IMG/VR virus record: IMGVR_UViG_3300045988_180644
Strand: one strand, 5' to 3'
Source of the DNA: a virus
Length of the DNA: 64,000 nucleotides
Shown: piece by piece, positions 3,458 to 46,615 of the stretch
Layout of the letters: each line of letters starts with the position of its first letter
How positions within the stretch are numbered: position 1 is the stretch's first letter
The notes under the pieces: model-generated
What the model saw: the letters and a program-made list of their open reading frames with translations, nothing else
The model's database searches: none
Told to the model about the DNA's origin: nothing
Position numbers and translations under genes: made by a program

Positions 3458-3715
3458 TTACATAGATTCGTGGAATGTACGAGAAATAACATCATCTTGT
3501 TGTTCTTTTGTTAATTTAACAAAGTTAACAGCATATCCAGAAACACGAATAGTTAATTGAGGATATTTTTCAGGATGTTTTTGAGCATCAATTAATGTAT
3601 CTCTGTTTAAAACATTAACATTTAAATGATGTCCTCCTTTTGTAGCATAAGCATCTAACATTCCAACTAAATTTTCAACTTGTTGTTCACTTGCAAGCAT
3701 ATTAAGCACCTCCAT
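3458..3715 (-). CDS. grcA: autonomous glycyl radical cofactor (GrcA/YfiD-like, PFL C-terminal glycyl-radical domain)
   Basis: [55 protein letters not shown] is near-identical to GrcA/pyruvate formate-lyase C-terminus, including the RVSGY glycyl radical motif; no PFL N-terminal body upstream. Confidence 0.85.
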
Positions 3716-7501: not shown

Positions 7502-7638
7502 TTGTCCATATGAGTCCTTTCAATCCTCTAGTCGCAGGACTATATTTTTTAGCAATATAAATGGGACCAATAATATGAAAAATGCCCCATTCCATTGTAT
7601 ACATTTTTTCAATTGTTTCTTCTTTTAATACAGCCAAA

Positions 7639-7866
7639 CTATATCACCTCAATGGCTTCAAGGATTTCCTTATTAAATCCCGTTTCTTCTGATGCTTCTA
7701 AAATCGCATCCTGTTCATCTGCTCCTTTGAATATTCCAACAAAGTGAGTGGGTGTAAAATCCCTCCAATGGAAATCATCATCATAAGGATTATCAAAATA
7801 ATCACCTGTGTATATCTGTGCATCTAAAATATAATATTTCTTGACCAGAATAATAAATGTTTTCAT
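7639..7866 (-). CDS. hypothetical protein
   Basis: 75 aa ORF. Confidence 0.5.
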   Translation of the reverse strand: MKTFIILVKKYYILDAQIYTGDYFDNPYDDDFHWRDFTPTHFVGIFKGADEQDAILEASEETGFNKEILEAIEVI

Positions 7867-7867
7867 G

Positions 7868-8320
7868 TTATAATTCCTCCTTGAATTCTTTTGTTTTCTG
7901 GATTTGTTCTAAAACATCAACGATTTCATTAAAATTTTTATCTGTTTGACTTGATAAAAAATGGATATATTGATTTATCAGATATAGCAGTTCAGCTTTA
8001 CCAAATTGTCCAATATATTTGACTTTATTGATGACTACCCATTTCCCGTTAATGTTTTCATTTTCGATTTCAGAAATAATAATTCTTTCATCTTCCTGCA
8101 ATTTCAAATCATGATTAATTTGTTCTTTACAACATTCACTTATTTCGATTATTTTTCTCACCGACGGTACATCTTTCTTTTCAGTTTCAACAAAGTTTTC
8201 CAGTAAATCTTCATATAGCTTTAAAATAAAGAGAAGTATCCCTTTTCCTGTTGTTTGCTCATGTTTGATTGTGATACCTTCTTGATTAAAAACTATCGTT
8301 CCTACATATTCCTTTTCCAT
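7868..8320 (-). CDS. hypothetical protein
   Basis: start moved to ATG (MEKEYVG) with GGAGAAAGGAGAG RBS; tracker start 8344 lies in leader hairpin. Confidence 0.6.
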   Translation of the reverse strand: MEKEYVGTIVFNQEGITIKHEQTTGKGILLFILKLYEDLLENFVETEKKDVPSVRKIIEISECCKEQINHDLKLQEDERIIISEIENENINGKWVVINKVKYIGQFGKAELLYLINQYIHFLSSQTDKNFNEIVDVLEQIQKTKEFKEEL

Positions 8321-8340
8321 TTTTCTCTCCTTTCTCCTAA

Positions 8341-8404
8341 ACAAAAAAGGTACGCCATGCGTACCTATCTCTCGTTTATGTTTTACATTATTATTTTACC
8401 ATAA
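8341..8404 (-). promoter_or_regulatory. leader cassette c (before 7868..8320)
   Basis: TATGGTAAAATAATAATGTAAAACATAAACGAGAGATA + GGTACGC/GCGTACC + T6. Confidence 0.6.
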
Positions 8405-8412
8405 TTTACTCT

Positions 8413-9051
8413 TTAATTCTCATTTGGTATAACGATAGATTGAATATTTCCTCCTACAACTCTAAATCTTTCGTCATATAGTTGATTTTCATAGTCAATT
8501 TCCTTTTTTACAGATTCCTTACATTTCTTTAAACCTTCTTTTAATCCTATAAACATATCATTGTACTCAAAATATTCTCTGGCATGATATTTATGTTCCT
8601 CTTCTCCCAGAAAAATAATATCTAACTCAAAAGGTTTTAAATTGTTTATGTAATGACCTCTGGCATGGAGAATATCTATGACAACAACATAATTATCTAT
8701 AACAAAAACTGTTGTATTATCCTTTTCTTCTCTATCACAAGTTATTTGCAACTTTTCAATATATTTTTCGACTATTTCTGACAACTTTTCAATATTGTTT
8801 ACATCCTTAAATAATCCTTTTATATAATCCCATATATCATAAAGCTGGTTATTATCATCATAGATTTGGTTAATTCCTGTACTAGCCACAACAAGCTTAT
8901 CATTAATTTTATATATCTTTTGGTAATTCCCATCTTTCAGTTCTCTGTTTGAGTATGTGCTATAAGAATCGGAGCATATAATAATTCCATTTTTATTTTT
9001 CAATATAACCATATAAGACATAAAATTTCTTCTCCTTTTTACTTTTTTCAT
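8413..9051 (-). CDS. HslV/proteasome-beta-like Ntn hydrolase paralog A (Ser instead of Thr at the nucleophile position)
   Basis: MSYMVILKNKNGIIICSDSYS...KLVVASTG aligns by eye to HslV N-terminus TTIVSVRRNGHVVIAGDG...KVIAGFAG; paralogous to 11803..12399; alternative start at 9021 (MSYM). Confidence 0.55.
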   Translation of the reverse strand: MKKVKRRRNFMSYMVILKNKNGIIICSDSYSTYSNRELKDGNYQKIYKINDKLVVASTGINQIYDDNNQLYDIWDYIKGLFKDVNNIEKLSEIVEKYIEKLQITCDREEKDNTTVFVIDNYVVVIDILHARGHYINNLKPFELDIIFLGEEEHKYHAREYFEYNDMFIGLKEGLKKCKESVKKEIDYENQLYDERFRVVGGNIQSIVIPNEN

Positions 9052-9107
9052 TAATTTCCTCCAGCATAATATTGCTAAGGATATTATAACATTTGATTTG
9101 GTATTAA

Positions 9108-9143
9108 TAAAAAGACTCTATGATGAGTCTTCTATCGTTTACC
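9108..9143 (-). terminator. variant hairpin/U-tract module at end of 9143..9712, followed by TGTTATAAT extended -10
   Basis: AAACGATAGAAGACTC-ATCATA-GAGTCTTTTT; conventional terminator-then-promoter order here. Confidence 0.5.
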
Positions 9144-9712
9144 TATTTTCTTGATGAATTTATTTGCTCTACAGCCAACTGAAATACCAATAAATAAATA
9201 TCTAAGATTCCTGTACTTCTTCTTCCAATCTTATGATAATCAGAATCGTCATGAAGAAGATTGTTTAATAGTTCTATTCCTCTCATACTTAGACCAGTTT
9301 GACTAGAATAATCAGTGAAAATGTCTCCAATGAGTTCTTCCATAGAATAATATCCATTAAGTCTATAATAATCCATAGACTGCTGAGATAATATTTCTAT
9401 AATATCTGCTTTAGCCGCATCCTTATCATAAGTATAAAGAGGTCGTGAACAGCATTTCACTTTCGATTCAAAATAATGCACATCATGACAATAATCTTTT
9501 AAGAAACTTGCATAAGTTAAGCCCGGATTATTAGACGCTATTAACTCTCCTAAATCACCAGTAATATGCAAGATATGTCGGTCTTCTTCAAATATAAATC
9601 TGATTTGATAGAATGATGAATCAGGTCTTTGAAAATCTAAGACTTTTATATTTCCAAAATCTTGAAAGGAAGCTACATGTTCTGCAAAGTTTTTCTTTTG
9701 GTTTTCTAACAT
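9143..9712 (-). CDS. hypothetical protein
   Basis: 189 aa ORF; 3' end overlaps a terminator-like hairpin. Confidence 0.6.
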   Translation of the reverse strand: MLENQKKNFAEHVASFQDFGNIKVLDFQRPDSSFYQIRFIFEEDRHILHITGDLGELIASNNPGLTYASFLKDYCHDVHYFESKVKCCSRPLYTYDKDAAKADIIEILSQQSMDYYRLNGYYSMEELIGDIFTDYSSQTGLSMRGIELLNNLLHDDSDYHKIGRRSTGILDIYLLVFQLAVEQINSSRK

Positions 9713-9769
9713 AAATTTCTCCTTTTTATTTCTTATTTTTATAATATCATAATGATTTTTTTATCAATA

Positions 9770-10264
9770 TTAATCATCCCAAATATCAAACATAAATCTC
9801 TTGATATTTGTCTTGCCTGCTTCTTTGATGAATTTTTTACAGGCTTCTTCTGATGTGAACAATACCTTGTTATGTACAGCTGAATAATAATAGTTAATAG
9901 ATATGCAATCCATCTTAGAGTTATAATATACATAATATTTTATAACGTGTTCATCTTTAATTTCATCCACTGAAAAATCATGGCTACATTTTTTTATTGC
10001 CATAAGATATTTAGCATATTCCATTGCTTCTTTTTCTGTCTGAAATGCATAATCTTTATTTATTAATAATAAATCAAATAAGGAATTATTCTTTGTGTCT
10101 TCTTTTATTGTGAAATCATCAATATTCACATAATAATATGTTTCTCCATATTCAGGAAAGAAGCGTTTATTTGAAATCCTATCTTTCACTATAACTTTTC
10201 CGTCATTATCAAGATATAAATCCTTTCCTTCTAACTCCTCAATACTAATCTTCTTCATCTTCAT
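9770..10264 (-). CDS. hypothetical protein
   Basis: 164 aa ORF. Confidence 0.6.
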   Translation of the reverse strand: MKMKKISIEELEGKDLYLDNDGKVIVKDRISNKRFFPEYGETYYYVNIDDFTIKEDTKNNSLFDLLLINKDYAFQTEKEAMEYAKYLMAIKKCSHDFSVDEIKDEHVIKYYVYYNSKMDCISINYYYSAVHNKVLFTSEEACKKFIKEAGKTNIKRFMFDIWDD

Positions 10265-10290
10265 TCTCCTCTAAGATTAGAATTATGAAT

Positions 10291-10542
10291 TTACTGTTTT
10301 GCTGCCATATCGGATGTATTCAGTGTGAAGACAGACCATACGAAGACGTCTTCGCCGTTGTTGTACAGCATAGCTTCGGTAGCACCACAGTAACTCATCT
10401 CAGCTTCGGATTCCTCTAGAGAGTCCGGCATATGAGCGTTGTAATCATTCTTCATGATGGATGTCGCTTCTTTTACATCGGATGTAAGTCCAAGGGAATC
10501 AATAGAGTATCCATCTGTGCGAACGATGTGATAAAGTTTCAT
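10291..10542 (-). CDS. hypothetical protein
   Basis: 83 aa ORF; locally GC-richer than surroundings. Confidence 0.5.
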   Translation of the reverse strand: MKLYHIVRTDGYSIDSLGLTSDVKEATSIMKNDYNAHMPDSLEESEAEMSYCGATEAMLYNNGEDVFVWSVFTLNTSDMAAKQ

Positions 10543-10560
10543 AATATATTCTCTCCTTTT

Positions 10561-10941
10561 CTACTCATTTTCATAAGGAACAGGCAATGGCTGCCATGCT
10601 TTAACAGGATTGTTTGCATAGAACTCAGCAAACCCTTTTCCACTAAAATACATAAACTTCTTTGTTGAGAAAAAATATGTTGCAGTTAATATACCACCGT
10701 TTTCCAAAGAAACTAATACCTCACTTGATTCGCCTAATTGAGGTACCCTTTCGCTAACAGGTATCCAATTATTGTCTTCTGGCATCACTGTAAGTATATC
10801 CAATACAGCATCTAAAGCATAATTCCATCCACGTTTGAACGCAATATCTTCTTTAGTATCTCCTTCCAAAATTCTATTTTGATACTTTTCTCTAATTTTC
10901 TCTCTTAACTTGATTCTATCAATCATTTTCATCCTCCACAA
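10561..10941 (-). CDS. hypothetical protein
   Basis: 126 aa ORF. Confidence 0.55.
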   Translation of the reverse strand: MWRMKMIDRIKLREKIREKYQNRILEGDTKEDIAFKRGWNYALDAVLDILTVMPEDNNWIPVSERVPQLGESSEVLVSLENGGILTATYFFSTKKFMYFSGKGFAEFYANNPVKAWQPLPVPYENE

Positions 10942-11560
10942 ATTCCTTCATAATTTTAAACTGGGCATCAATCATATCAATTAATGCTTTTCTGAGTTTT
11001 CCAAATTTACCATCAGGTTTTGTAATCATTTCTATAATGTTTTTAATAAGGATAAGTTTCTCATCATTGGAAACTTCTTCATTTTTAATTTGTTCAAACA
11101 AATCTTTCAATGACTTTGTTCCCCATGCGTAACTATAAGCTGAATTTCCACTCAATAAAGAATATTGTTGATTAATAAATTCGGTAATCCAATCATTGCA
11201 CCCTGAATGACTTGAAATAAAGTTATCATATAACCATGAATCATCATTGATATAAAAATAACAGCTAAGATTTCCATTCATATGACTCATCGAGAAATAG
11301 ATATTATCTGTGAGATAGTATTCCTCACCTAAATAGATATTTTCATCTGCTATTTTTTGATATAAATCTAATTGTTTTTCTAGATGTTTAATTTCTTCTT
11401 TTAACTGATATTCATTGACAGATATGTTACTTCTTCTCAAGTCTTCTAAACCTTCTTTATACAAAAACTGCTCATACTCTCTAACTTCTTCAATTTTCTT
11501 ATCCAAAACTTCAATCTCTTTTTCTAGAATTTGGATAATTTTTCTTTTATCTTCGCTCAT
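10919..11560 (-). CDS. hypothetical coiled-coil protein
   Basis: 213 aa ORF, K/E-rich N-terminus; preceded by a ~51 aa overlapping leader ORF (11553..11706). Confidence 0.6.
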   Translation of the reverse strand: MSEDKRKIIQILEKEIEVLDKKIEEVREYEQFLYKEGLEDLRRSNISVNEYQLKEEIKHLEKQLDLYQKIADENIYLGEEYYLTDNIYFSMSHMNGNLSCYFYINDDSWLYDNFISSHSGCNDWITEFINQQYSLLSGNSAYSYAWGTKSLKDLFEQIKNEEVSNDEKLILIKNIIEMITKPDGKFGKLRKALIDMIDAQFKIMKEFVEDEND

Positions 11561-11727
11561 TTTCGTTTTCCTCCTTCAAAAATCTCATACAATCCTCATA
11601 TTCATCTTTTATAAAATTTTGTAATTCTTTGTATTTCTCTTTTAATTCCTTGATTGATTTACATTTAGCAAATTCTTCATAAATCCATATTTTCGTCTCC
11701 TCATACATTTTTTTACTCCTTTCTACG

Positions 11728-11790
11728 AAAAAAAGAGAGACACATTTGTCTCTCTCATCGTTTAATATTTACATATTCATTATAGCATAA
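11728..11790 (-). promoter_or_regulatory. leader cassette d (before small ORF + 10919..11560)
   Basis: TTATGCTATAATGAATATGTAAATATTAAACGATGAG + AGAGACA/TGTCTCT + T7; duplicated with cassette e. Confidence 0.6.
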
Positions 11791-11802
11791 GACAGGGTAC
11801 TG

Positions 11803-12399
11803 TTAGTCAAAAGGTATAACTAAACACTGCACTTTTCCACCTATTGTTCTTTGACCTTCTATATGCAAAGCGTTTTCTGTCATGATGGCATATTCTACTG
11901 ACTCAATGCATCTCTTTTGGGCTTCCTTTAACGATACATTTATTTCTGTATTTCTAAATTGCATAAGCCCATTGACAGCTATAAGTTCATCTCCAGAACA
12001 AAAAATATCGACATCTCCTTTCCTTTTAACGGTTATTGCTGTTGTCTTTGAATGAATAATATCTATAACATATAAAGTATCTTTATAGACAATAATCAAA
12101 CGAATATCCTGTACATATCTATCACAAAATCTTTTAATATAAGATATATATCTGTTGATTTGTTCTTCAATACTATCAAAATTCATGAAATATTCTTTAT
12201 AAGTTTCATTGATATCAATCGCTTTCCCTGTATACTCATCAATAAATCCATTCAATCCAGTGCTTGCAATAACAACATCACCAATCTGATGAATTTTTTT
12301 ATAATTTGAATCTTTAAGTGTCCTGTCTCCATAACAGCTATATGAATCAGAAGCAATGACAATTCCTTCTTTTGTCATATAAGTAATCATGTATGACAT
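11803..12399 (-). CDS. HslV/proteasome-beta-like Ntn hydrolase paralog B (Ser at the nucleophile position)
   Basis: MSYMITYMTKEGIVIASDSYSCYGDRTLKDSNYKKIHQIGDVVIASTG matches HslV N-terminal pattern (x.VVIAxD...K.N.KK...D.VIA..G); RBS AAAGGAG. Confidence 0.55.
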   Translation of the reverse strand: MSYMITYMTKEGIVIASDSYSCYGDRTLKDSNYKKIHQIGDVVIASTGLNGFIDEYTGKAIDINETYKEYFMNFDSIEEQINRYISYIKRFCDRYVQDIRLIIVYKDTLYVIDIIHSKTTAITVKRKGDVDIFCSGDELIAVNGLMQFRNTEINVSLKEAQKRCIESVEYAIMTENALHIEGQRTIGGKVQCLVIPFD

Positions 12400-12529
12400 A
12401 ACATTTCTCCTTTCCTGTTTTTTTTTCTATGTATAACATTAAACAATTCCTCCATGAATAAACTACTCTTATTGTAACACACCAATCATTTCTATTTCAC
12501 TTTATCATGAAGGAATTCATTCTTTAGCA

Positions 12530-13351
12530 TTAATTCCAGTTGACTCCAATATGGCCGTCTGGATGGATAATAACATTTGAATATCCGTCCTCATAATCGT
12601 TATGAATTTGCTGATACATATCTCCTAAAGTGATACGAGCATGTTTCCCATTGTAATTGAATGTGGTATAAACAAAGAAATCTCCTACACGGAATGTATG
12701 CAAGTCAATTTCGTCATTTTCCTGCAATTCATCCAAGATATTGATGTCATAGTCATATTTTTCAAGACTGCTTAAAAACCGAAAAGAAAACGACTGTGCG
12801 TTTGTATTATCCATGTAATCTTTTAAGTGCTTTAAGTTCATATCTTTATCTTGGACAATGGTTTGAACGGTACAATCTGGGAAATCTTCAGGATTTGGCT
12901 TTACGTAATCATTCACTGAAAGGTTGATATGACCCAAACCATTTAATTCTTTGCTGTATCCTGACGTATTAATACTTAAGAAGATATTATCGCTGTATTC
13001 TTTATAGATATCAGATAATTCCTTTACGTATTCAGGATATAATCCTGGCTCTCCACCTGTAATTGTCAATCTCGCTGCAGGATGTTCACGTAATACTTTT
13101 CTAAGAGCTTCCTTTTGTTTTTCAATATCGATTTGCCCTTTCATAGGATTCTTTCTTTCAATACAGAACGGACAATGATAAGGACATTCCTGCGTCATGA
13201 TAATCTGAACATTAATACGATAATACAATGGACGACCTAAAGAAGTCCTTTCATGACGTGTTTCTAATCTATACTTTAAATCTTCTTTCATCTGATTTCT
13301 AATCCACTCATAATTATCAATATGTGGGATAAAGTTCATTTTTCTAGTCAT
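12530..13351 (-). CDS. radical SAM enzyme (family unresolved; activase-like)
   Basis: CPYHCPFC (CxxxCxxC) cluster, LTITGGEP and INTSG motifs; start set to ATG (MTRKMNF) with AGGAG RBS. Confidence 0.75.
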   Translation of the reverse strand: MTRKMNFIPHIDNYEWIRNQMKEDLKYRLETRHERTSLGRPLYYRINVQIIMTQECPYHCPFCIERKNPMKGQIDIEKQKEALRKVLREHPAARLTITGGEPGLYPEYVKELSDIYKEYSDNIFLSINTSGYSKELNGLGHINLSVNDYVKPNPEDFPDCTVQTIVQDKDMNLKHLKDYMDNTNAQSFSFRFLSSLEKYDYDINILDELQENDEIDLHTFRVGDFFVYTTFNYNGKHARITLGDMYQQIHNDYEDGYSNVIIHPDGHIGVNWN

Positions 13352-13383
13352 AATATTCACTCCTAATAAAAAAGCTATAACGA

Positions 13384-13428
13384 TTTAAAAATTTTTCTCG
13401 TTATAGCATGCTCTCTTTTATGTTTCCT
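13384..13428 (-). terminator. hairpin + U-tract between 430-aa gene and radical SAM gene
   Basis: TGCTATAACGA-loop-TCGTTATAGC followed by TTTTTT then AGGAG RBS. Confidence 0.5.
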
Positions 13429-14720
13429 TACTTAGATTCGTCATAGCCAACAACAAAATGATTAGTCTTTGTTACTGTTGTGTATCCTTCTTTAATATCT
13501 AATGTAAACATCACTTTACATGGCAATCCAGCAGTTGCATGTACACCAAATTTATTTGCATTGAGCCAGCCTTTTCCTTTAAAAGGAAATGATGTTTCTT
13601 CAATGAATTTTCTTGGTGTCGTATACCTTCTTCTAGAGAAATTAAAATCACAATATGAAGTTTTTAGCTGGTCTTTGGCGAGGTTTTCTAAGAATTCATC
13701 AAGATTTCCTGATTTGTCAATGATATCCCTTATTTTCTTAGTGATTTTTACATAATGATAGTATTGGATAGGATTGTTGTCAGTATATTCTAAAGCATGT
13801 TGCCAGATTCTATTATTTTCATAAGACACAGCCAGTCTTCCTAAATATAAAAATTCTGCACCATTTTTTTCTTTGTAGATAGCCCCTACATTTAAATCCT
13901 CCTGCTTCAAATATCTTGTTTTCTTTTTGATATCCTGAATATTTAAATCTTTATCTAGTAAAATGTTAGCTTTTTTGACTCCCATGATTAAAGCAATAGC
14001 TAAACGTGCTCTATGTTTATTAACAATTTCAGACATATCATATTCATCTCTGAATTCTACCGTTTCATCCGGTACAATGCATAATGCTATTCTATACCCA
14101 CATTCATAGTCTGTTAATCCGTTTTCAAAAATATATATTCTTCTATTTGCCTGAAATGTTCCGTCCTTTTTCAGTGGAATCAAATCAAAAATATCAGGTA
14201 ACTGCTCCTTATTCATAATCATATGAGCTATATCAATCATTTGCTTTATCTTTTGATAATATTTTTCACCCGTTAAACTTGACTCTGGAATCTTGCCTTT
14301 ACCATATTTAGCCAAATTTTTTTTAGCTTCATTTAAATAATAGTCTAGATTATATTCATCAAGAAATATTGATGCATTTGGACCATAAATTTCTTTTACA
14401 GTTTTAGGCGGATTTAAACAAATCTGTAACAGTTGCTTTTCATCCAAAAACTCATGTTTTAATTTACCAGTTGATGCTTCAAAAGATGAACCTTCAAATT
14501 CTGCTCTAATTTTAAATATCTCTAAAATCACATCTTGTCCATTTCTTGTTTTGACATATACATATGAGCGAGTGCGTGAGCAATTGTGCTTATTGAAAAA
14601 ATTAAGAATATCGCTTTCTGTTGTTGTTTGTGTAACTTCATAATAAATCCCGTATTTCTTTGCCTGTGTTTCAGTTATAGGACTAATATCTTCTTTTTTT
14701 AAAGCGAAAAGTTTTGCCAT
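13428..14720 (-). CDS. hypothetical protein, long paralog (430 aa)
   Basis: shares LPDIFDLIPLKKDGTFQANRRIYIFENG and EHRARLAIALI...IQDIKKKTRYLKQEDL blocks with 14880..15872. Confidence 0.65.
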   Translation of the reverse strand: MAKLFALKKEDISPITETQAKKYGIYYEVTQTTTESDILNFFNKHNCSRTRSYVYVKTRNGQDVILEIFKIRAEFEGSSFEASTGKLKHEFLDEKQLLQICLNPPKTVKEIYGPNASIFLDEYNLDYYLNEAKKNLAKYGKGKIPESSLTGEKYYQKIKQMIDIAHMIMNKEQLPDIFDLIPLKKDGTFQANRRIYIFENGLTDYECGYRIALCIVPDETVEFRDEYDMSEIVNKHRARLAIALIMGVKKANILLDKDLNIQDIKKKTRYLKQEDLNVGAIYKEKNGAEFLYLGRLAVSYENNRIWQHALEYTDNNPIQYYHYVKITKKIRDIIDKSGNLDEFLENLAKDQLKTSYCDFNFSRRRYTTPRKFIEETSFPFKGKGWLNANKFGVHATAGLPCKVMFTLDIKEGYTTVTKTNHFVVGYDESK

Positions 14721-14879: not shown

Positions 14880-15872
14880 TTATTCCGTGTCGTCATATTC
14901 AACATAAACATCATATTGTGATACAACTCCTGTATATTCATCTTTTAAATCCATTGAAAACATCGGAAATTCCGTTTGTCCTGGTGTTGCATTTGGTCCA
15001 TCGATATTGACCTTTACCCATCCTTTAGGACATGCATTTTCAACTTCATCAACAAATTTTCTTAGACTAGTTCGACTGCGTGATGAAAACCCTAACTCAT
15101 CTGTGTTATCTGTTTTTAATTTCACATGAGCCCATTTTTCTAGAAATTCATCAAGTGAATCACAACCATCAAGTATATCCCTCACTTTTTTAGTTACTCT
15201 TAGATATTCACAACCATCTATATGTTTGCATTTAGTTGTTAGGATAGTACGTGGAACATCTCTTAGAACAATACTAATGCCTCCTAAAAACAGGTACTCC
15301 GTTCCAGATTTTTCTTTGTAGATTCTCCCTGGCTTTAAGTCTGATTGCTTGATATACGTAGACCTCGTTTTGATATCCTGTATTTTAAGGCTTCTATTAA
15401 GAAGTGGATAGAGTTTTCTTACACCTGAAACAATGGTTATGGCTAAACGGGCACGATGTTCATCAACTTTTTCATTCATATCCATAAATTCATACCATGG
15501 ATTAATACCATAAGGAACAATAACTAATGCGATTCTCCTTCCTGTTATATATTCTCCAGAACTATCTGTCTCACAGTATGAAATTCCATTATCATAAATA
15601 TAAATACGTCTAGCCTTTTGAAATGTACCGTCTTTTTTCAATGGAATCAAATCAAAAAGATTAGGTACTTTTTCCTGATTCATAATCATGTTTGCTATTT
15701 TTACTAATTCGTAAATTTTACGATAATAATCTTCACCAGTTATATTGGTATCGGGTAATTTACTTTTTCCACAGACGTCTTTTATTTTTTTAGCATGTTC
15801 TAAATAATGATTGAAATTCTCTTCATCATAAAATATTGATAAACCTGCACCATAGATTTCCTTTTTTGCCAT
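14880..15872 (-). CDS. hypothetical protein, short paralog (330 aa) of 13428..14720
   Basis: aligns with residues ~100-430 of neighbour; VPNLFDLIPLKKDGTFQKARRIYIYDNG. Confidence 0.65.
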   Translation of the reverse strand: MAKKEIYGAGLSIFYDEENFNHYLEHAKKIKDVCGKSKLPDTNITGEDYYRKIYELVKIANMIMNQEKVPNLFDLIPLKKDGTFQKARRIYIYDNGISYCETDSSGEYITGRRIALVIVPYGINPWYEFMDMNEKVDEHRARLAITIVSGVRKLYPLLNRSLKIQDIKTRSTYIKQSDLKPGRIYKEKSGTEYLFLGGISIVLRDVPRTILTTKCKHIDGCEYLRVTKKVRDILDGCDSLDEFLEKWAHVKLKTDNTDELGFSSRSRTSLRKFVDEVENACPKGWVKVNIDGPNATPGQTEFPMFSMDLKDEYTGVVSQYDVYVEYDDTE

Positions 15873-20289: not shown

Positions 20290-21528
20290 TTAAGCTATGT
20301 TGACCATATATTCATCGTTCTTGTTGTCTTTTCCTAACAAAGAAGTCACATAATCACTAGCAACCTCCAGATTAAACCTTTCCATATCCTCACATGCACA
20401 CCATGCCATTGTATAGTCGATGATGTCTAGTGCCTTGTCTGGAAAGTATCTATCTGGAATAGTCTTCGCCATAGAAATGACTTTTTCTATATCCTCTAAT
20501 TCAATGCTAACATGATGATACTTACAATATCCCTGCAACTTCTTTTGAATCATTGCAGGAATTTGAGAAGGTTTTGGCTCATGAATATGAATTCTTCTAA
20601 AACGTCTTGCTAAAGCCTTGTTTACCGCTAGATATCTGTCATATTCTTCTTCAGTCGTAGCAATGATGAACTTGTGTTTCCCTTGTGTCAAAATAGGTTT
20701 TAATATTTCTGACAAAGATGTACTCCCTTCACTGCTTCCTGCCTGTGTTAAAGAGTGGGCTTCATCAATGAATACGATAAGTTTTTTACCTTTGACTGCT
20801 TTCAAAAATCTTTGAATCTTCTCTTCAAATTCCCCTCTATATTTAGTACCAGCCACAGTTGCTGTCACATCTAGATTGACAATTTGGTATCCTTTGAGTT
20901 TTTGGGGAGGATTGTATCGAATCAGTCTAGCTAATTCTTCTACAATGGCACTCTTCCCTACCCCAGCCTTACCAAGAAGAGCAATATTAGCCTTATCCTT
21001 GCATGATAAACCAATAATCATCTGTTTAACCTCTTTGTCTCTGCCAAGAATTGTCTTGGTTTTGGCTGGTTTGATGATTTCCGTGAATGATTCACAACCT
21101 TTTATAGCCTTTAATGAACTTTCTTTTTCTCTTAGTTTGTCAACAACTTCATCAATGTCGACTCCCTCTTCCTTAAGGATTTCTACAGAGACAGATTCTG
21201 ACTCTAATAATGCAACGCACAATTCATCAATGTTTACTTTAGCCTTTTTCTTGTTTTCTAAGGCATTATTAAGAATCTTTTTAAAAACATCGCCATATTC
21301 TAAATAGAACGGCTGTACTTCCTTTTCTGGGAAGAAATATTCTACCCTTTTAGCAAAAGATGTATAATCAACTCCATACTTTTTTAGTTCCTTTGTTAAT
21401 AAAACATCCATTTGTAATAGAGCTAATAGTAAATGACATGTGTCAACTCTTTCGTGTCCTTTATCGAAACAGATAGATTCAGCTGTCACAATTGCTTTTT
21501 GACATTTTTCATCAAATTTATCTAACAT
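20290..21528 (-). CDS. ClpA/ClpC-like AAA+ ATPase, truncated: Clp N-domain repeats + D1 module only
   Basis: two Clp_N-like repeats (LLLALL...), Walker A GKAGVGKS, LIVFIDEAHSL Walker B, ARRF sensor; no D2 domain; 412 aa. Confidence 0.75.
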   Translation of the reverse strand: MLDKFDEKCQKAIVTAESICFDKGHERVDTCHLLLALLQMDVLLTKELKKYGVDYTSFAKRVEYFFPEKEVQPFYLEYGDVFKKILNNALENKKKAKVNIDELCVALLESESVSVEILKEEGVDIDEVVDKLREKESSLKAIKGCESFTEIIKPAKTKTILGRDKEVKQMIIGLSCKDKANIALLGKAGVGKSAIVEELARLIRYNPPQKLKGYQIVNLDVTATVAGTKYRGEFEEKIQRFLKAVKGKKLIVFIDEAHSLTQAGSSEGSTSLSEILKPILTQGKHKFIIATTEEEYDRYLAVNKALARRFRRIHIHEPKPSQIPAMIQKKLQGYCKYHHVSIELEDIEKVISMAKTIPDRYFPDKALDIIDYTMAWCACEDMERFNLEVASDYVTSLLGKDNKNDEYMVNIA

Positions 21529-21615: not shown

Positions 21616-22068
21616 TTAATTCAACACTGTATCGTCTTTAAACATATTCAATGCATTAATGACAATTTCAAGTGCATTGATATCATTATTCGTTAAAATT
21701 GTCAAAATGCAGTATGTGACTACCATGATATCACACAAGAATACATCTCCTTTATACCCTATATCTCTATATCCTGTCTCTTCATTGTTTTGAATGCTTA
21801 TTTCCTCACGGATATATATTTCTCTTTCTTCCTCATGTTTCTGTGCTTCCTGAGCAATGAAGTTCTGTGCTTCAACAACATATCTGATAAAAGTTTCTAT
21901 ATCATAGAAGTCATTCATTTCCTCATCATTCATATTATCAATCTCCTGACAGATAATTTCATGTAAATTGACAATAGCCATTAAACATCCTTCCTGCGTT
22001 ATTGTAGGACAGTTGACATCAATGTTTTCCTTATTCAATTGAAACGTTCCTTCAAATTTTACTTCCAT
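21616..22068 (-). CDS. hypothetical acidic protein
   Basis: 150 aa ORF. Confidence 0.55.
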   Translation of the reverse strand: MEVKFEGTFQLNKENIDVNCPTITQEGCLMAIVNLHEIICQEIDNMNDEEMNDFYDIETFIRYVVEAQNFIAQEAQKHEEEREIYIREEISIQNNEETGYRDIGYKGDVFLCDIMVVTYCILTILTNNDINALEIVINALNMFKDDTVLN

Positions 22069-29991: not shown

Positions 29992-31014
29992 TTATTTTAA
30001 ACTTTGTCTTAGTTTTTTTATATCAGCCTCTAAGGATAGTAAATAATTTTTAAATTCCTTTTTTTCATCATTATCAGCAAAGATGATTTTATCAGGTGTT
30101 AAATTTGTAGTTATTGTCTTAAATGTTCTCACTTTTTTTATGATTTCATTGCCAGTGTAATTTTTATCCTTATTCCCTTCAATTTCCATTTGTAAATCAA
30201 AAAGATATTTTGAGAATCCTTTTCTATCCATTTTGCTAAGAGCCTTCATGACTCTATCTTGTTCTGCATCAGTTAGCGAAGATATTAAATAAGCTTGATT
30301 AAAATTAATGAGTTCTTTTCTGAAGTATTCCTTAATGAGAGTATTATGTGCAAAGTATATTGCGTTAACTTTTTTGGCTTTTGCTAGTGAATATGAAAAA
30401 CCAAATCTTTTCATTTTATTAACAACATATTCAGCTTTATTAACTACACCTTCAAGTTTTGTGTAAACTCCATTTTCATATCCAAAAATATAGTCGTAAT
30501 GTATCATGAGCTTTTCAGCACTTAAGTTTCTAGACAGAAGGTTTGTATCATGATATACCTTTTCTATTTCCTTTTGTGTTGCCCCGCGTGGTACTACAAT
30601 GGCTGGTATCTTCGAAAACTTTCTTCTCTTGGCTTCATTTCTTTCTTCAATAGCTCTTTTATATAGATTATGAACAGCTCTAAATCTCTGAGACCCAGCT
30701 CTTATCTCGTATTTTCCCGTTTCATTTCCTTCTTCATCTACTTCTCTTATGACATTGATTGGCTGTAACACCCCTACTAACCAAATAGATTCCTGAAACT
30801 CCTCCATTTCTTCTGGGGTCTTATTTGGATATTCATTCTTTTTATTATCAACAATTTTATCTAAGGGGATGTATTGCATCTCATATTCTTCAAGTTCATC
30901 TAAAGTTTTTTTATCATTAGCTTCAAATGGTGTTTCAAATGAGTTCCCAAAAAAATCAATTGATTCAACTGGCTCCATGTCACCAACACTTAAACTTCTT
31001 TTATTCCTTGCCAT
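29992..31014 (-). CDS. parB: ParB/Spo0J-like partition protein
   Basis: LQPINVIRE...YEIRAGSQRFRAV resembles ParB N-terminal box; downstream of parA; perfect palindrome parS-like site just 3' of it. Confidence 0.65.
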   Translation of the reverse strand: MARNKRSLSVGDMEPVESIDFFGNSFETPFEANDKKTLDELEEYEMQYIPLDKIVDNKKNEYPNKTPEEMEEFQESIWLVGVLQPINVIREVDEEGNETGKYEIRAGSQRFRAVHNLYKRAIEERNEAKRRKFSKIPAIVVPRGATQKEIEKVYHDTNLLSRNLSAEKLMIHYDYIFGYENGVYTKLEGVVNKAEYVVNKMKRFGFSYSLAKAKKVNAIYFAHNTLIKEYFRKELINFNQAYLISSLTDAEQDRVMKALSKMDRKGFSKYLFDLQMEIEGNKDKNYTGNEIIKKVRTFKTITTNLTPDKIIFADNDEKKEFKNYLLSLEADIKKLRQSLK

Positions 31015-31017
31015 TTT

Positions 31018-32160
31018 CTATGCCTCCTTTTTCCCTTGCAAGAGCTTTGACACATATTCATCAACCATTAATAATTCTTCGGTAGATAAACCATCCATTT
31101 TATCTTCTACATGTCTCTGAGCTCTAATTCTTTCAGCCGCTTTTTGATTTTCCTCTGTTCTCTTATTAGCACTTACTATTCCTGCTAATAAATCCATTTC
31201 ATACTCAATTTTTTCTGCATCAAAATATTCTTTAACAAAATTTATGATACTTGTTCTATAATCATCTTTAACTTGTGAAGCTAAATAATCCCAAGTATTT
31301 GAATCAACAACTAATTGTTTATCTACAATTTTAGTATCAAAAACTTTAATACCTGCTACATCAGAAATACTATTATTAATTTCTTCAAGGACTATTCTAT
31401 CGTTACTTCTTACTCTTTTATATTTATTACATAAAATACCTTTAATCTCAAAATCTGGTATATACTTCTTTACACTTTCTACATTTCTTAAAACGGTATT
31501 TATTCCTTCAGCTGAATTCATATCCATAAAGGTAGGAATAATTAATTCTCTAGACGCAGCAATTCCATTAAGCGATAATACTCCTAAAGATGGAGGGCAG
31601 TCTATAAAGATAAAGTCATAATCGAAATACTCTTCAATTTGTTTTACAACTAATTGCAACATGATACGATTGTACTTTTTCCCTTCATCTGTTAGTATAT
31701 AATGTCTTTCTACATGATTGTCAGGAGTTTGACTCATAAAGGCTAGTTCAATAAAAGATGTATCTTGTCCGACTCCAGGAATGATATCACATCCAAAAGG
31801 AATATCATTATATATCCACTTCATTCCATTTCTTTCAGCTTTTGTATATGTTGGAGTTCTTTTTGAATTGCTTATATATTGTATAGGAGGTAACTTTCCC
31901 CATCTTTCGAAATAAGACACAAGATATGCCATCGTTGGAATTCCATGTTCTTTCCCAAATTCCAATGCACCCATTCGATTCGTGTTAATATTAAACATAC
32001 TCGTTAAAGAGTTCTGAGGGTCCCAATCTATCAGGAGAACCTTCTTATGAAAAACTGTCCCCATAATATTAGCAATATTTGCTGTCAATGTCGTTTTACC
32101 TATTCCACCTTTATTATTATAAATGAGTATGACATGTGTTTTATTTTTATTTGTTGACAT
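31018..32160 (-). CDS. parA: ParA/Soj-family partition ATPase (long C-terminal extension)
   Basis: deviant Walker A NNKGGIGKTT; start set to ATG (MSTNKNKTHVIL) with AAAGGAG RBS rather than tracker start 32292. Confidence 0.8.
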   Translation of the reverse strand: MSTNKNKTHVILIYNNKGGIGKTTLTANIANIMGTVFHKKVLLIDWDPQNSLTSMFNINTNRMGALEFGKEHGIPTMAYLVSYFERWGKLPPIQYISNSKRTPTYTKAERNGMKWIYNDIPFGCDIIPGVGQDTSFIELAFMSQTPDNHVERHYILTDEGKKYNRIMLQLVVKQIEEYFDYDFIFIDCPPSLGVLSLNGIAASRELIIPTFMDMNSAEGINTVLRNVESVKKYIPDFEIKGILCNKYKRVRSNDRIVLEEINNSISDVAGIKVFDTKIVDKQLVVDSNTWDYLASQVKDDYRTSIINFVKEYFDAEKIEYEMDLLAGIVSANKRTEENQKAAERIRAQRHVEDKMDGLSTEELLMVDEYVSKLLQGKKEA

Positions 32161-32308
32161 CCTGATTCTCCTTTCATATTCACACTTTATTATATTAAAA
32201 TTATATATTTTTTTCAACTTGTATTTACATTCCCTTGAATTTGTGCGTATCGTTTTCGCGGCCCCAAAATCTTTTGATTTTGCCAGGTTCACTTTTCATT
32301 TTAGATAA

Positions 32309-32558: not shown

Positions 32559-33218
32559 CTATACAAACTCATCATATTCTTTTATCTAATGATATGAATT
32601 GTGATTGACTTTTAAAGGACTTCTTCCTTATGTCATATAAATTATAACTTTATATTCTAAGATAATTTTTTCTTGTTTTATAAGGTTTTTTGATAGGTTT
32701 TTTATAGTATTTTGAGTCCATCATGTTTTTATTGTTTTTTAATAGAATTTTTCTCATTTCTATTTAGTTTTCTATAATTATCTATCAGAGTCCCACTCCT
32801 ACAATCCCCACCAAACTCTCTCCATCATCCTACAACCACCTCATGTATTTGGATAGGTTATTAATAGGATTTTTATAATTTATCAGACATATCAAGTCCC
32901 CTATTCAAAATCTATCCTCTTCCTTACACTCTCGCTTTCATTTCATATACTCATACCTTACTTTCCACCCACCTCCCTCAAATTAATCCATTATCAGAGC
33001 ATAACAAAAATTAGTGGTTTATAGATAGATTGTTAATAGGATTGTAAATAGAATCGAGTCATATGTTGTTCATGAGTAAGACAGGATTCAATTCTATCCA
33101 TCCCCTATTCACTTCCATTAAAACTCAAGCATAACTTTAGTTAATAGGACAGTATTACTTTAAGTTCTTAATAGATAATTGATAGAATCAATATTACACT
33201 TCTATAAAAGTTATGACT

Positions 33219-33236
33219 GAGGTTCATATGAACTTC
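33219..33236. repeat. parS-like palindrome copy
   Basis: GAGGTTCATATGAACTTC. Confidence 0.6.
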
Positions 33237-33525
33237 AAGCTTATATATTAAAAAAAGTATAGACGTACTATTAACAATCTATCCACAATCATAAACTAAA
33301 GCTATACTTGAGAATAGAAGCAAGATAGAATATTAATAGAATTGTATAAAACGAATCATAGATAAGTTTCCTGATGTCTTTTGTGAATATAACAATCCTA
33401 TTCAAAATCTATCATAACTCAAACTTATTTCATAATACTGAAATTAGATTTGTGAGAGGATTTACAATAGAAATGTGTATCCTTTCAAACTCTTCCAACA
33501 TCTAAATAAACACTTTTATATATTC

Positions 33526-33542
33526 GGGTTCATATGAACTTC
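33526..33542. repeat. parS-like palindrome copy
   Basis: GGGTTCATATGAACTTC. Confidence 0.6.
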
Positions 33543-33760
33543 TATATAGATTTGCAAGAGCTATGTCTATATTTTGATTTTAGAAAGATATATTTAGATT
33601 CCTATGATGAATAGATGCTCGATAGAAGCTAAAGTATAACTTGAGTCGTTGTAAAATTCTATCAACAACCTTTCATAAATCAATTCATGTAAACGAAGAA
33701 AAAATTTGAAGAGTTAATAATGGGGTTTTGATAGAGGGTTAATAGGATTTATTTATATAT

Positions 33761-33777
33761 AGGTTCATATGAACTTC
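33761..33777. repeat. parS-like palindrome copy
   Basis: AGGTTCATATGAACTTC. Confidence 0.6.
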
Positions 33778-34456
33778 ATGAATTAAAAAGCACAGAATAC
33801 TAATTTATATCTAATCACTCTATCAATAACCTATCAAAGCTCCATTCATAAGAGTAAAAATACTTTCTACTTAAATAAAGTATAACTTAAGTTATAAAAA
33901 AAATCTATCAATAATCTTTCAATCAACCTTCATATTATTTTTGTGTAAGATGAGCTTAGAACAGGTGGAGGATTTAGATAGATGATGGATAATGTTAGTG
34001 ACATAAATAAATCATTTCTATTTCAATAAAGAAAATCCTATCAACTCTCTATCAAAATTCCTTCAATCTCAATTCATATAAACTATAGCTTGAGTTATAA
34101 AAAGAACAACTCCTCATAAATTCCATTCATCTCCATTCTGAATATAAAAATCTTATTGCATAGAAATAGTTTCAATAGAAGATAAAAAGAATATGAGAAG
34201 ATTATATGTAATAGGTACAATATTATCAAATACCAATGTGACACAATCCAAACTCTTATCAAAACAAAAAAAGGATAACGATATTATATGAATGAGATTA
34301 TGATAGGAGTAGGAAGGTGATAAAACGAATCATAATACATCATCAAAACTCTATCAAAAAGCCTAATGATATTGAGTTGTAAAAGTTTGGATGATGATAG
34401 ACTTTAGATGGGATTGAATGGGTTAAATAAATGGGAGGGTTTGGAAAGAATGTGGG

Positions 34457-34476
34457 GAGGTTCATATGAACCTGAG
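34457..34476. repeat. parS-like palindrome copy
   Basis: GAGGTTCATATGAACCTGAG. Confidence 0.6.
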
Positions 34477-34798
34477 AATAGGATAATAAGGGATATAGAT
34501 AGACTTGTATTGGAAAAACATTAAAAAAATACGATAAATCGCATATTTATCAAGAAAATAGTATTTTTAAGGAAAAAGAGGGAAAACCAATTAAAAACTA
34601 TCAAAAACCCAATAAGAAATAGGATAAAACTTAAAGTTATTATTCTTATTGTCTAAGGAAGAAGTCCTCTTAAAGTCAGCCCAATCATTTTATTTCACTC
34701 ATCCCATAATATGATACAATAGTAATGTAAATTAATACGAATAGAGACATGTAGCACTATACATGTCTCTTTTTTTATGAACTAAAAGGAGGATTAAA

Positions 34799-45820: not shown

Positions 45821-45903
45821 GTCCTCGTGATGGAACAGGTAGACATGCATGGCTTAGACCCATGTGCTTATGCGTAAGGGTTCGAATCCCTTCGAGGACA
45901 CCA
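45821..45903 (+). tRNA. tRNA-Leu (anticodon TAG), class II long variable arm
   Basis: hand-folded cloverleaf: acceptor GTCCTCG/CGAGGAC, anticodon stem CATGG/CCATG loop CTTAGAC, GGTTCGAATCC T-arm, CCA encoded. Confidence 0.7.
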
Positions 45904-45947
45904 ATATCACTCCAATGCTTGTAAAGAGTGAATATATGAAATTATAT

Positions 45948-46020
45948 GAACATCTAGCATAATGGAAATGCGTAGGGTTCAGCGCCCTTCATGATACTGG
46001 TTCAAGTCCAGTGGTGTTCA
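45948..46020 (+). tRNA. atypical tRNA-like gene (anticodon loop TTCAGCG; no encoded CCA)
   Basis: acceptor GAACATC/GATGTTC, D-arm TAGCATAATGGAAATGC, T-arm ACTGG-TTCAAGT-CCAGT; paralog of 46396..46468. Confidence 0.45.
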
Positions 46021-46070
46021 AATGCCAGATAAGAAATAAAGCTAAAACAGGGATAATCATATCCCTACAT

Positions 46071-46208: not shown

Positions 46209-46236
46209 AATATACATTTTTTGTGACAAACAATAT

Positions 46237-46313: not shown

Positions 46314-46314
46314 T

Positions 46315-46390: not shown

Positions 46391-46395
46391 AAAAT

Positions 46396-46605: not shown

Positions 46606-46615
46606 TATAAAGATG

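What the first reader, a model, noticed from the sequence alone, without database searches (positions are those of the whole stretch)
8413..12399. Two paralogous HslV/proteasome-beta-like Ntn hydrolases with Ser at the nucleophile position
Proteins at 8413..9051 and 11803..12399 begin MSYM(I/V)... and align by eye to the HslV N-terminus (TTIVSV..GHVVIAGDG....KGNVKKV....DKVIAGFAG). Ser2 sits where the catalytic Thr1 would be after Met removal, and the conserved Lys and a GSG-like segment are retained. Ser-nucleophile HslV-like proteases in two diverged copies inside a phage-like island are not a described phage function. They could form a hetero-oligomeric peptidase and might partner with the orphan ClpC-like ATPase at 20290..21528.
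Basis: partly seen in the sequence, partly recalled or inferred. Interest (0 to 1): 0.7.

Follow-up and report, generated by a model that had tools for sequence, protein, structure and literature searches.

The report
Serine-type proteasome-like hydrolases on a gut mobile element
Two diverged genes in a large uncultured gut phage-like element encode proteasome-fold enzymes that carry serine instead of threonine at the catalytic N-terminus; they belong to a rare, metagenome-only branch of an already catalogued group of phage-borne proteasome relatives, their function is unknown, and they come and go independently rather than working as an obligate pair.

Summary

Across 22 diverse relatives, the only invariant positions in mature numbering are Asp17, the Lys33 equivalent and Gly47. 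Position 1 is Ser in 20 and Thr in 2. dN/dS is about 0.1 for each copy.

- Phage-borne proteasome homologues and Ser1 variants are already described (Fuchs et al. 2021; BPH; CodW).
- The fold is closer to Anbu and beta subunits than to HslV.
- Near-identical elements carry A+B, B alone, or A with a decapitated B, so an obligate hetero-oligomer is unlikely.
- The Clp-like ATPase and the radical SAM gene are absent from the sequenced flanks of the other element types.

The family is tiny (17 clusters among 1.84 billion proteins) and found only in metagenomes. Related elements carry one to six paralogues, some broken.

Most likely these are independent accessory Ser-Ntn hydrolase cassettes. I call it a new member of a known kind, of moderate interest.

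The parts
11803..12399 (-). Copy B: 198-aa proteasome-family Ntn hydrolase, clade I ('SG' type). Ser2 (Ser1 after Met removal), Asp18, Lys35 and Gly48 are conserved.
12407..12412 (-). Shine-Dalgarno AAGGAG, 7 nt before the ATG of copy B. The upstream sequence is out of frame, so MSYM is the true N-terminus.
   Evidence: Sequence read directly.
11733..11756 (-). Intrinsic-terminator-like hairpin (10-bp stem plus T run), 47 nt after the stop codon of copy B.
   Evidence: 5 terminator-like sites in the region against 1.0 +/- 1.2 in shuffles.
8413..9021 (-). Copy A: 202-aa proteasome-family Ntn hydrolase, clade II ('F-L/M-G' type). Ser2, Asp18, Lys35 and Gly49 are conserved. The Ser129-equivalent is Leu.
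   Evidence: ORF; Pfam PF00227 27.4 bits; AF2 model pLDDT 93.8 with the same topology; alignments; dN/dS 0.10 against L018.
9022..9062 (-). Start region of copy A with two candidate initiation sites. AAGGAG at 9037..9032 lies 10 nt before the MSYM ATG at 9021. GGAGG at 9062..9058 lies 6 nt before an upstream in-frame ATG at 9051, which would add an 11-residue leader, MKKVKRRRNFM, ahead of Ser.
   Evidence: Sequence read directly. Both sites are conserved in L018. The gene caller used the 9021 start.
8348..8366 (-). Intrinsic-terminator-like hairpin (8-bp stem, 5 GC pairs, T run), 47 nt after the stop codon of copy A.
9112..9131 (.). Hairpin between the 189-aa gene and copy A. Read on the minus strand it is followed by TTTATT, so it may insulate copy A from upstream transcription.
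   Evidence: scored on the + strand by the scan; the minus-strand reading is mine.
9143..10264 (-). Two upstream genes (189 aa, phrog_5051; 164 aa) that are gained and lost together with copy A as one replaceable block. This is context, not a demonstrated partner.
   Evidence: The block is replaced by a 358-aa gene in L006, and by a Y1 transposase plus a 488-aa gene in L007. The 189-aa family occurs in Streptococcus prophages that lack any proteasome-like gene.

Best explanation
The window is part of a large (at least 126 kb) uncultured human-gut mobile element with low G+C. It looks like a phage or phage-plasmid of a Firmicute. It carries two separately terminated accessory genes for proteasome-family N-terminal-nucleophile hydrolases.

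Proposed mechanism, by analogy with the 20S beta subunit, HslV and BPH:
1. Translation starts at the Met of MSYM, and methionine aminopeptidase removes that Met. There is no propeptide.
2. This exposes Ser1, whose hydroxyl is the nucleophile.
3. The Lys33 equivalent acts with the free alpha-amine as the base, Asp17 orients the lysine, and Gly47 forms the oxyanion hole.

How the two copies relate:
- They descend from an old duplication (clade I and clade II) but function independently of each other.
- They do not depend on a dedicated AAA+ unfoldase.
- They belong to a small gene family on related elements that shows birth-and-death turnover: one to six diverged paralogues per element, with frequent truncation or disruption.
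- That pattern fits a set of specialised hydrolases acting on particular host or element proteins (host takeover or counter-defence) better than it fits a housekeeping degradation machine.

What is shown: the fold, the conserved catalytic constellation, purifying selection, independent presence and absence of the copies, and the lack of a conserved ATPase or radical SAM neighbour.

What is inferred: Met removal, catalytic activity, ring assembly, peptide-bond substrates and the biological role.
For: Fold:
- AF2 pLDDT 86 and 94.
- The Foldseek top 50 are all 20S subunits or Anbu, probability 1.0.

Active site:
- In 22 paralogues sharing 15-46% identity, the only invariant columns are D17, K34 (equivalent to Lys33) and G47. 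Position 1 is Ser in 20 and Thr in 2.
- hhalign against E. coli HslV pairs D18 with Asp17 and K35 with Lys33.
- The HMM alignment to yeast-type beta2 does the same.
- The broad family profile hits only proteasome subunits in the PDB, best E 5e-6.

Start codon:
- The SD is placed before MSYM, and the upstream frame of copy B is broken.
- 'M-S/T' is the only conserved N-terminal feature across subfamilies.

The genes are functional: dN/dS is 0.10 for copy A and 0.09 for copy B.

The copies are independent:
- A+B in the window, L005 and L019.
- B alone in L006 and L007.
- A plus a B remnant lacking codons 1-31 in L018.
- Each copy has its own terminator.

Turnover of the family:
- Six tandem paralogues in L009, four in L011, three in L016.
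- Split or truncated copies in L009/L010, L014, L016 and L018.

No dedicated partner:
- No AAA+ or radical SAM gene in the flanks of L001-4, L009, L011, L013-17 and L021.
- Fuchs et al. 2021 likewise found no AAA+ partner for the new proteasome homologues.

Setting: the surrounding genes are accessory or host-interaction types, namely SprT-like, PTH2, PARG-like, a toxin-antitoxin pair, and RadC in relatives.
Against: - No biochemical evidence exists for any member of this family.
- The second-shell residues of the 20S active site (Ser129, Asp166, Ser169) are only partly kept. Copy A has Leu where Ser129 would be. This mapping is by secondary-structure register, not by superposition.
- BPH, a comparable orphan homologue, was inert in standard peptidase assays (PMC5777263), so hydrolysis of ordinary peptides cannot be assumed.
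- Copy A has a second, better-spaced SD and ATG 30 nt upstream, conserved in L018. If that start is used, an 11-residue leader ending in Met, not the usual Gly-1, would have to be removed.
- Two unrelated element lineages each keep one clade I plus one clade II gene (window; L002-4 and L014), which leaves room for optional cooperation.
- Only about 10 kb of flank was visible per locus, so a distant ATPase partner cannot be excluded.
- The host-interaction role is inferred from context and turnover only.
Confidence: 0.55

Rival explanations
1. One reading: copies A and B form a hetero-oligomeric ring peptidase, fed by the orphan ClpC-like ATPase at 20290..21528, making a phage-encoded ATP-dependent protease.
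For: - Two independent element lineages carry one clade I and one clade II paralogue (window/L005/L019; L002-4/L014).
- Related elements hold up to six tandem paralogues, reminiscent of heteromeric rings.
- The ATPase has intact Walker A and B motifs and matches PHROG 4871, 'ATP-dependent protease'.
- A 150-aa gene next to the ATPase has a weak homologue directly downstream of the proteasome-like gene in L011.
Against: - Near-identical elements carry B without A (L006, L007), or A with a B remnant that lacks Ser1 and Asp17 (L018).
- The two copies lie 2.8 kb apart, each with its own terminator.
- The ATPase is 8 kb away, beyond a toxin-antitoxin pair on the opposite strand. It consists only of a Clp N domain plus D1, so it has no D2 module, where ClpP-docking loops reside (established knowledge). 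It ends ...EYMVNIA, without an HbYX motif.
- No AAA+ gene appears in the flanks of seven other element types.
Confidence: 0.12
2. The proteins are proteasome-fold enzymes that are not general peptidases. They would act as sequence-specific transpeptidases or ligases like connectase, or as amidases on a non-protein substrate, perhaps linked to the neighbouring radical SAM enzyme.
For: - The substrate-binding strand region is unusually conserved (SDSYS-Y--R-LKD-NYKKIH is invariant or nearly so across the family), which suggests one defined substrate.
- BPH is inert on standard peptides.
- The Ntn clan includes many amidases.
- The radical SAM gene directly precedes copy B in the window.
Against: - The models show no two-helix insertion between strands S3 and S4, which is the signature of connectase.
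- Anbu and the beta subunits score higher than connectase.
- The radical SAM neighbour is absent in L021 and in the other element types.
Confidence: 0.2
3. The proteins are catalytically dead scaffolds, analogous to proteasome alpha subunits, or decaying passenger genes with no present function.
For: - Several relatives are truncated, frameshifted or interrupted (L009/L010, L014, L016, L018).
- The copies are dispensable in near-identical elements.
- Copy A lacks the Ser129 equivalent.
Against: - dN/dS is about 0.1 for both copies.
- The nucleophile, Asp17, Lys33 and Gly47 positions are the only invariant ones across 15-46% identical paralogues. That is the opposite of what is expected for inactive subunits.
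- The Shine-Dalgarno sites and terminators are intact.
Confidence: 0.06

Closest known systems
Anbu (ancestral beta subunit; PDB 5LOY/5LOX)
   Different: The model ends in a beta strand at residues 190-196 and has no long C-terminal coiled-coil helix H5. The neighbours scanned with Pfam show none of the ATP-grasp or transglutaminase-type genes of the Anbu operon as I recall it. Sequence similarity is undetectable outside the N-terminal ~50 residues.
20S proteasome beta subunits (Pfam PF00227, MEROPS T1)
   Same: Same fold, and the same Thr/Ser1-Asp17-Lys33-Gly47 constellation.
   Different: Ser replaces Thr. Copy B has no propeptide. Asp166 and Ser169 equivalents are absent and Ser129 is kept only in clade I (inferred by register). 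No alpha subunit and no proteasomal ATPase are present. The genes are carried on a mobile element.
HslV / CodW (ClpQ)
   Same: Compact subunit whose nucleophile is exposed by Met removal. B. subtilis CodW uses an N-terminal Ser (cited in PMC5777263). PHROG 1040 'peptidase HslV family' gives a weak hit.
BPH (Betaproteobacteria proteasome homologue)
   Different: Different taxa, and chromosomal rather than mobile. 10-18% identity. The acidic elongated pore loop was not examined here.
Phage-associated proteasome homologues PPH, AAH and CPH, and Firmicute clusters FC1-FC5 (Fuchs, Alva and Lupas 2021, PMC8665760)
   Same: Proteasome-like proteins spread by phages or restricted to Firmicutes. Catalytic residues are conserved, no AAA+ partner is known and function is unknown. 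BFVD holds about 20 phage proteins of this fold.
   Different: PPH is about 140 aa and lacks helix H2, whereas these proteins are 198-202 aa with both helix pairs. This family is absent from the GenBank phage, PLSDB, IMG/VR and GTDB species-representative collections searched. It has no NCBI-sourced member among its 17 clusters, so it could not have been in the nr-based 2021 survey. The relation to FC1-5 could not be tested.

Membership tests
Proteasome-like Ntn hydrolases (Pfam PF00227 / MEROPS T1 superfamily) | Four-layer alpha-beta-beta-alpha Ntn fold of the proteasome type | tested here: met
Proteasome-like Ntn hydrolases (Pfam PF00227 / MEROPS T1 superfamily) | Thr or Ser nucleophile as the first residue of the mature chain | tested here: inconclusive
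   Ser directly follows the initiator Met in all 17 family members, and Ser or Thr does so in all 22 wider paralogues. Ser is a good P1' residue for Met aminopeptidase (established knowledge). Actual Met removal cannot be shown computationally, and copy A has an alternative upstream start.
Proteasome-like Ntn hydrolases (Pfam PF00227 / MEROPS T1 superfamily) | Asp17, Lys33 and Gly47 equivalents | tested here: met
   D17, K34 and G47 are the only invariant columns in 22 paralogues. They align to Asp17 and Lys33 of HslV and of beta2.
Proteasome-like Ntn hydrolases (Pfam PF00227 / MEROPS T1 superfamily) | Score above the Pfam gathering threshold | tested here: inconclusive
   Copy A scores 27.4 bits, above the threshold of 22.4. 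Copy B scores 21.3 bits, below it.
Proteasome-like Ntn hydrolases (Pfam PF00227 / MEROPS T1 superfamily) | Assembly into stacked hexameric or heptameric rings | not testable with these tools
   No multimer prediction or model coordinates were available.
HslV (ClpQ) of the HslVU protease | Sequence membership in the HslV equivalog models | tested here: not met
HslV (ClpQ) of the HslVU protease | A cognate HslU (ClpY) ATPase encoded with it | tested here: not met
   The only AAA+ gene nearby is a ClpA/B/C-type N domain plus D1 module, 8 kb away. None was called in the flanks of the other elements.
Anbu | Long C-terminal helix H5 forming a coiled coil, and the conserved Anbu operon neighbours | tested here: not met
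   The models end with a beta strand and no H5. The neighbours scanned show no Anbu-operon domains. The operon content is recalled from memory.
PPH (proteasome homologue of phages and their hosts) | About 140 residues, with helix H2 missing | tested here: not met
   The proteins are 198 and 202 residues, and both helix pairs are present (H63-71/H77-95 and H138-148/H157-178). Definition taken from PMC8665760.
Connectase | Mobile two-helix insertion between strands S3 and S4; monomeric ligase | tested here: not met
Firmicute clusters FC1-FC5 (Fuchs et al. 2021) | HMM or cluster-map membership with the published representatives (WP_075525441.1 and others) | not testable with these tools
Indirect evidence: a profile search of 1.84 billion proteins returned only one NCBI-sourced protein (P0033), at E 1.9e-4.

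The most novel reading that the evidence does not exclude
The MSYM family and its sister subfamilies (MSFVG-type, MT-type and the 'distant' MSYMV-type) may form a mobile-element-specific radiation of proteasome-like enzymes. Arrays of two to six diverged paralogues would then do one of two things:
(a) co-assemble into heteromeric rings, which would be an independent, virus- or plasmid-borne reinvention of the heteromeric proteasome; or
(b) act as a fast-evolving set of ATP-independent proteases, each destroying a particular host defence or regulatory protein.

The window's A+B pair would be the minimal version of such a set.
Probability: 0.2. Interest if true: 0.8.

Novelty: new member of a known kind. 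Interest (0 to 1): 0.42.

Why it matters
No phage-borne or orphan bacterial proteasome homologue has an assigned function. This family gives a compact test case. It has an invariant Ser nucleophile, it sits on gut mobile elements, natural knock-outs of each paralogue exist, and relatives carry tandem arrays of up to six paralogues.

If the enzymes prove active, they would show what a proteasome-fold hydrolase does for a mobile element without a dedicated unfoldase. They would also show whether Ser1 enzymes of this fold have distinct chemistry or inhibitor sensitivity. If the arrays form mixed rings, they would be an independent origin of subunit heterogeneity in the proteasome family.

As it stands, the finding mainly extends a known catalogue with a rare, metagenome-only subfamily.

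Tried and rejected
Searches that found no relative of the family:
- Megablast and tblastn against GenBank phages.
- tblastn against PLSDB plasmids.
- Back-translated pattern scans of IMG/VR and of the GTDB genome representatives.
- PADLOC defence models.
- NCBIfam for either copy.

Methods that did not work:
- The afdb50 fold library was not available.

Ideas considered and rejected:
- The conserved 'RRNF' before MSYM is a propeptide. Rejected for the family in general: it translates a Shine-Dalgarno sequence, it is out of frame in copy B, and it is absent from P0002 and P0015. It stays open for copy A.
- The 189-aa neighbour is a dedicated partner. Rejected: its family lives in Streptococcus prophages that have no proteasome-like gene.
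- The radical SAM gene is a functional partner. Rejected: it is absent in L021 and in the other elements.
- In-frame TAA recoding operates in the window. A scan for split ORFs found only ordinary adjacent genes.

Other dead ends:
- Literature searches for a characterised phage proteasome homologue or an anti-defence link found nothing beyond the 2021 catalogue.
- I could not establish that the element is a phage. No virion genes appear in the window or in the 10 kb to its left.

Full report
**Observation**

Both ORFs are real and lie on the minus strand.
- Copy B (11803..12399, 198 aa) begins MSYMITYM. An AAGGAG Shine-Dalgarno lies 7 nt upstream, and the sequence further upstream is out of frame.
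- Copy A, read from stop to stop, gives a 212-aa ORF (8413..9051). The MSYMVIL start is the ATG at 9021 (202 aa), and that is the start the gene caller used on the source contig.
- A second in-frame ATG at 9051 has a well-spaced GGAGG and is conserved in a 94%-identical relative. So copy A's true N-terminus is not settled.
- The two proteins are clear paralogues: 38% identity, E 3e-39.

**What they are**

Sequence evidence:
- Pfam PF00227 (Proteasome) matches the N-terminal ~45 residues of both. Copy A scores 27.4 bits, above the 22.4-bit threshold. Copy B scores 21.3 bits, just below it.
- PHROG 1040, 'peptidase HslV family', gives weak hits.

Structural evidence:
- AlphaFold models built on family alignments are confident: copy B pLDDT 86, pTM 0.86; copy A pLDDT 93.8, pTM 0.89, with the same order of strands and helices.
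- The Foldseek top 50 against the PDB are all 20S subunits or Anbu (E about 2e-8, probability 1.0).

So the fold is proteasome-type, and it is closer to Anbu and the beta subunits than to HslV.

**Active site**

- In 17 family members, Ser2, Asp18, Lys35 and Gly48 are invariant.
- I aligned 22 much more diverse paralogues (15-46% identity) after dropping the initiator Met. The only invariant columns are D17, K34 and G47. Position 1 is Ser in 20 sequences and Thr in 2.
- This is the Thr/Ser1-Asp17-Lys33-Gly47 signature that defines proteasome-like proteins (PMC8665760).
- HMM and hhalign alignments place D18 on Asp17 and K35 on Lys33 of beta2 and of HslV.
- The broad family profile hits only proteasome subunits in the PDB: 110 sequences, best E 5e-6.
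- Second-shell residues are less conserved. By secondary-structure register, the Ser129-Gly130 equivalent is S-G in copy B's clade but L/M/Q-G in copy A's clade, and I see no Asp166 or Ser169 equivalents before the conserved GG. This mapping is an inference, not a superposition.
- Both genes are under purifying selection: dN/dS is 0.10 for A and 0.09 for B.

**Is the Met before Ser the initiator?**

- The conserved 'RRN[FY]' upstream of MSYM in many database entries translates an AGGAG-type Shine-Dalgarno.
- Copy B, P0002 and P0015 have no such extension.
- In the distant subfamilies, only the 'M-S/T' dipeptide is conserved at the N-terminus.
- As with E. coli HslV, the nucleophile would therefore be exposed by methionine aminopeptidase. 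This rests on established knowledge and was not tested.

**How rare is the family?**

- A word-indexed search of 5.8 billion proteins found 9 relatives of copy B and 2 of copy A.
- A full HMMER profile search of 1.84 billion representatives found 17 at E below 1e-10 and 28 at E below 1e-3.
- All family members come from metagenome assemblies (Logan, ENA, JGI). One distant hit, P0033, has an NCBI source.
- Nothing was found in GenBank phages, PLSDB, IMG/VR or the GTDB representatives.

**Context**

- The window matches a 106.7-kb human-gut contig (ERR525948) and runs past that contig's end, so the element is at least about 126 kb (coordinate arithmetic is mine).
- It has 31% G+C, ParA/ParB, RecD-like and RecJ-like genes, a DnaD-like loader, SpoVG, and 25 tRNA genes including a UAA suppressor.
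- I saw no virion genes, so 'phage' is likely but unproven.
- The two genes sit in a long one-directional array of small accessory genes: SprT-like, thymidylate kinase, a GrcA-like glycyl-radical protein, PTH2, a PARG-like protein and a Gp49/HTH toxin-antitoxin pair.
- A terminator-like hairpin follows each copy (8366..8348 and 11756..11733). The region holds 5 such sites against 1.0 +/- 1.2 expected.

**Test of the hetero-oligomer idea**

Near-identical versions of this element show every combination:
- A+B: window, L005, L019.
- B only: L006 and L007, where the block of the 162-aa gene, the 189-aa gene and copy A is replaced by other genes while both flanks are conserved.
- A with a B remnant: L018, where the remnant lacks its first 31 codons, including Ser1 and Asp17.

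An obligate A/B complex is therefore unlikely.

A neighbour-joining tree does show that the duplication is old. Clade I holds copy B, L002_a and L014_a. Clade II holds copy A, L002_b and L014_b. A second, unrelated element type also carries one gene of each clade. Optional cooperation therefore cannot be excluded.

**Test of the ATPase and radical SAM links**

- The 412-aa ATPase is a Clp N domain plus the D1 AAA module and lid. It has no second AAA module and ends ...EYMVNIA, with no HbYX-type tail.
- It lies 8 kb away, beyond a toxin-antitoxin pair on the opposite strand.
- No AAA+ gene and no radical SAM gene was called within about 10 kb of family members in L001-4, L009, L011, L013-17 and L021.
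- In L021, the 79%-identical copy-B homologue directly follows the 433-aa gene with no radical SAM gene between them.
- Fuchs et al. also found no AAA+ partner for the new proteasome homologues.

**Wider pattern**

- Related elements carry several diverged proteasome-like paralogues.
  - L009, from a 200-kb contig, has six in tandem at 7571..12169: two Thr1 types, two MSFVG types, one member of the window's family and one distant MSYMV type.
  - L011 has four and L016 has three.
- Several copies are damaged:
  - an in-frame TAA in the same place in two samples (L009, L010);
  - frameshifted copies in L010 and L016;
  - N-terminal truncations in L014 and L018.
- Variable copy number, frequent decay and replacement inside otherwise conserved flanks together look like birth-and-death evolution of accessory genes. 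That pattern is typical of genes engaged with the host. This last step is inference.

**Comparison with what is known**

- Phage-borne proteasome homologues (PPH, AAH, CPH) and Firmicute-specific clusters FC1-FC5 were catalogued in 2021, with conserved catalytic residues and unknown function (PMC8665760).
- BFVD contains about 20 phage proteins of this fold.
- Ser as nucleophile is rare but documented: some BPH subfamilies, one Anbu and CodW (PMC5777263).
- Literature searches found no functional study of any phage homologue.
- This is therefore a new, metagenome-only subfamily of a known kind. It is not HslV, and its fold is nearest to Anbu and the beta subunits. Its relation to FC1-FC5 could not be tested here.

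**Verdict**

- The reading as a Ser-nucleophile proteasome-fold enzyme is supported.
- The claims of phage novelty, obligate hetero-oligomer and Clp-ATPase partnership are not supported.
- Best explanation, confidence about 0.55: independent accessory cassettes encoding Ser1 Ntn hydrolases that need no dedicated unfoldase and probably act on specific host or element proteins.
- Interest is moderate (0.42). The most novel reading still open is heteromeric rings or a diversifying counter-defence protease set, at about 0.2 probability.

Noticed in passing
window 45821..51833 (tRNA-Sup at 47801..47873): An array of 25 tRNA genes on the + strand, including a suppressor tRNA with anticodon TTA, which reads UAA. 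A scan for ORFs split by one in-frame stop found only ordinary adjacent genes in this window.
   Followed up: partly
L009 7571..12169 (ENA ERZ27273442 contig_2251, 199,570 bp); also L010: Six tandem, highly diverged proteasome-like paralogues in 4.6 kb: two with Thr1, four with Ser1. They sit next to two Peptidase_M90-like genes and a SecA-like gene. The first paralogue carries an in-frame TAA at 7970..7972 in two independent samples, so it is either a pseudogene or a read-through target.
   Followed up: partly
window 20290..21528 (-): A truncated Clp/Hsp100-type ATPase: Clp N domain plus the D1 AAA module and lid only, 412 aa, with intact Walker A and B motifs. It matches PHROG 4871. Its function and partner are unknown.
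   Followed up: partly
window 12530..13360 (-) and 3458..3715 (-): A radical SAM enzyme (CPYHCPFC motif) with weak similarity to NrdG, PFL-activase and viperin models. About 9 kb away is an 85-aa GrcA/YfiD-like glycyl-radical protein (RVSGYAV motif). Together they may be an activase and spare-part pair.
   Followed up: no
window 13428..14720 (-) and 14880..15872 (-): Two adjacent large genes (430 and 330 aa) that both hit PHROG 2475, of unknown function. They are conserved next to the copy-B locus in all variants of this element and in L021.
   Followed up: no
window 29992..32292 (-) and about 33000..34800: ParB-like and ParA-like partition genes next to a strand switch and a reversal of GC skew near 34 kb. 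This suggests a replication and partition centre, hence a plasmid-like or phage-plasmid lifestyle.
   Followed up: no
window 54502..55965 (+): A 487-aa SPFH/Band 7 protein with a flotillin C-terminal domain, which is unusual cargo for a mobile element.
   Followed up: no
L022 18781..19980 (about 9 kb left of the window on the source contig); L022 14406..15440: A microbial PARG-like catalytic domain fused to YAcAr, plus PTH2 and metallophosphatase genes. The same HTH, PTH2 and metallophosphatase trio lies just downstream of the proteasome-like gene in L015.
   Followed up: no
L007 7782..9650 and L019 4714..6582: An IS200/IS605-type Y1 transposase plus a 488-aa gene, inserted in the variable spot between copy B and copy A in some variants of the element.
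   Followed up: no
window 21616..22068 (-) and L011 3852..4319: The 150-aa gene next to the Clp-like ATPase has a weak homologue (25% identity, E 7e-11) directly downstream of the proteasome-like gene P0055 in another element. This is the only hint of a link between the two loci.
   Followed up: no
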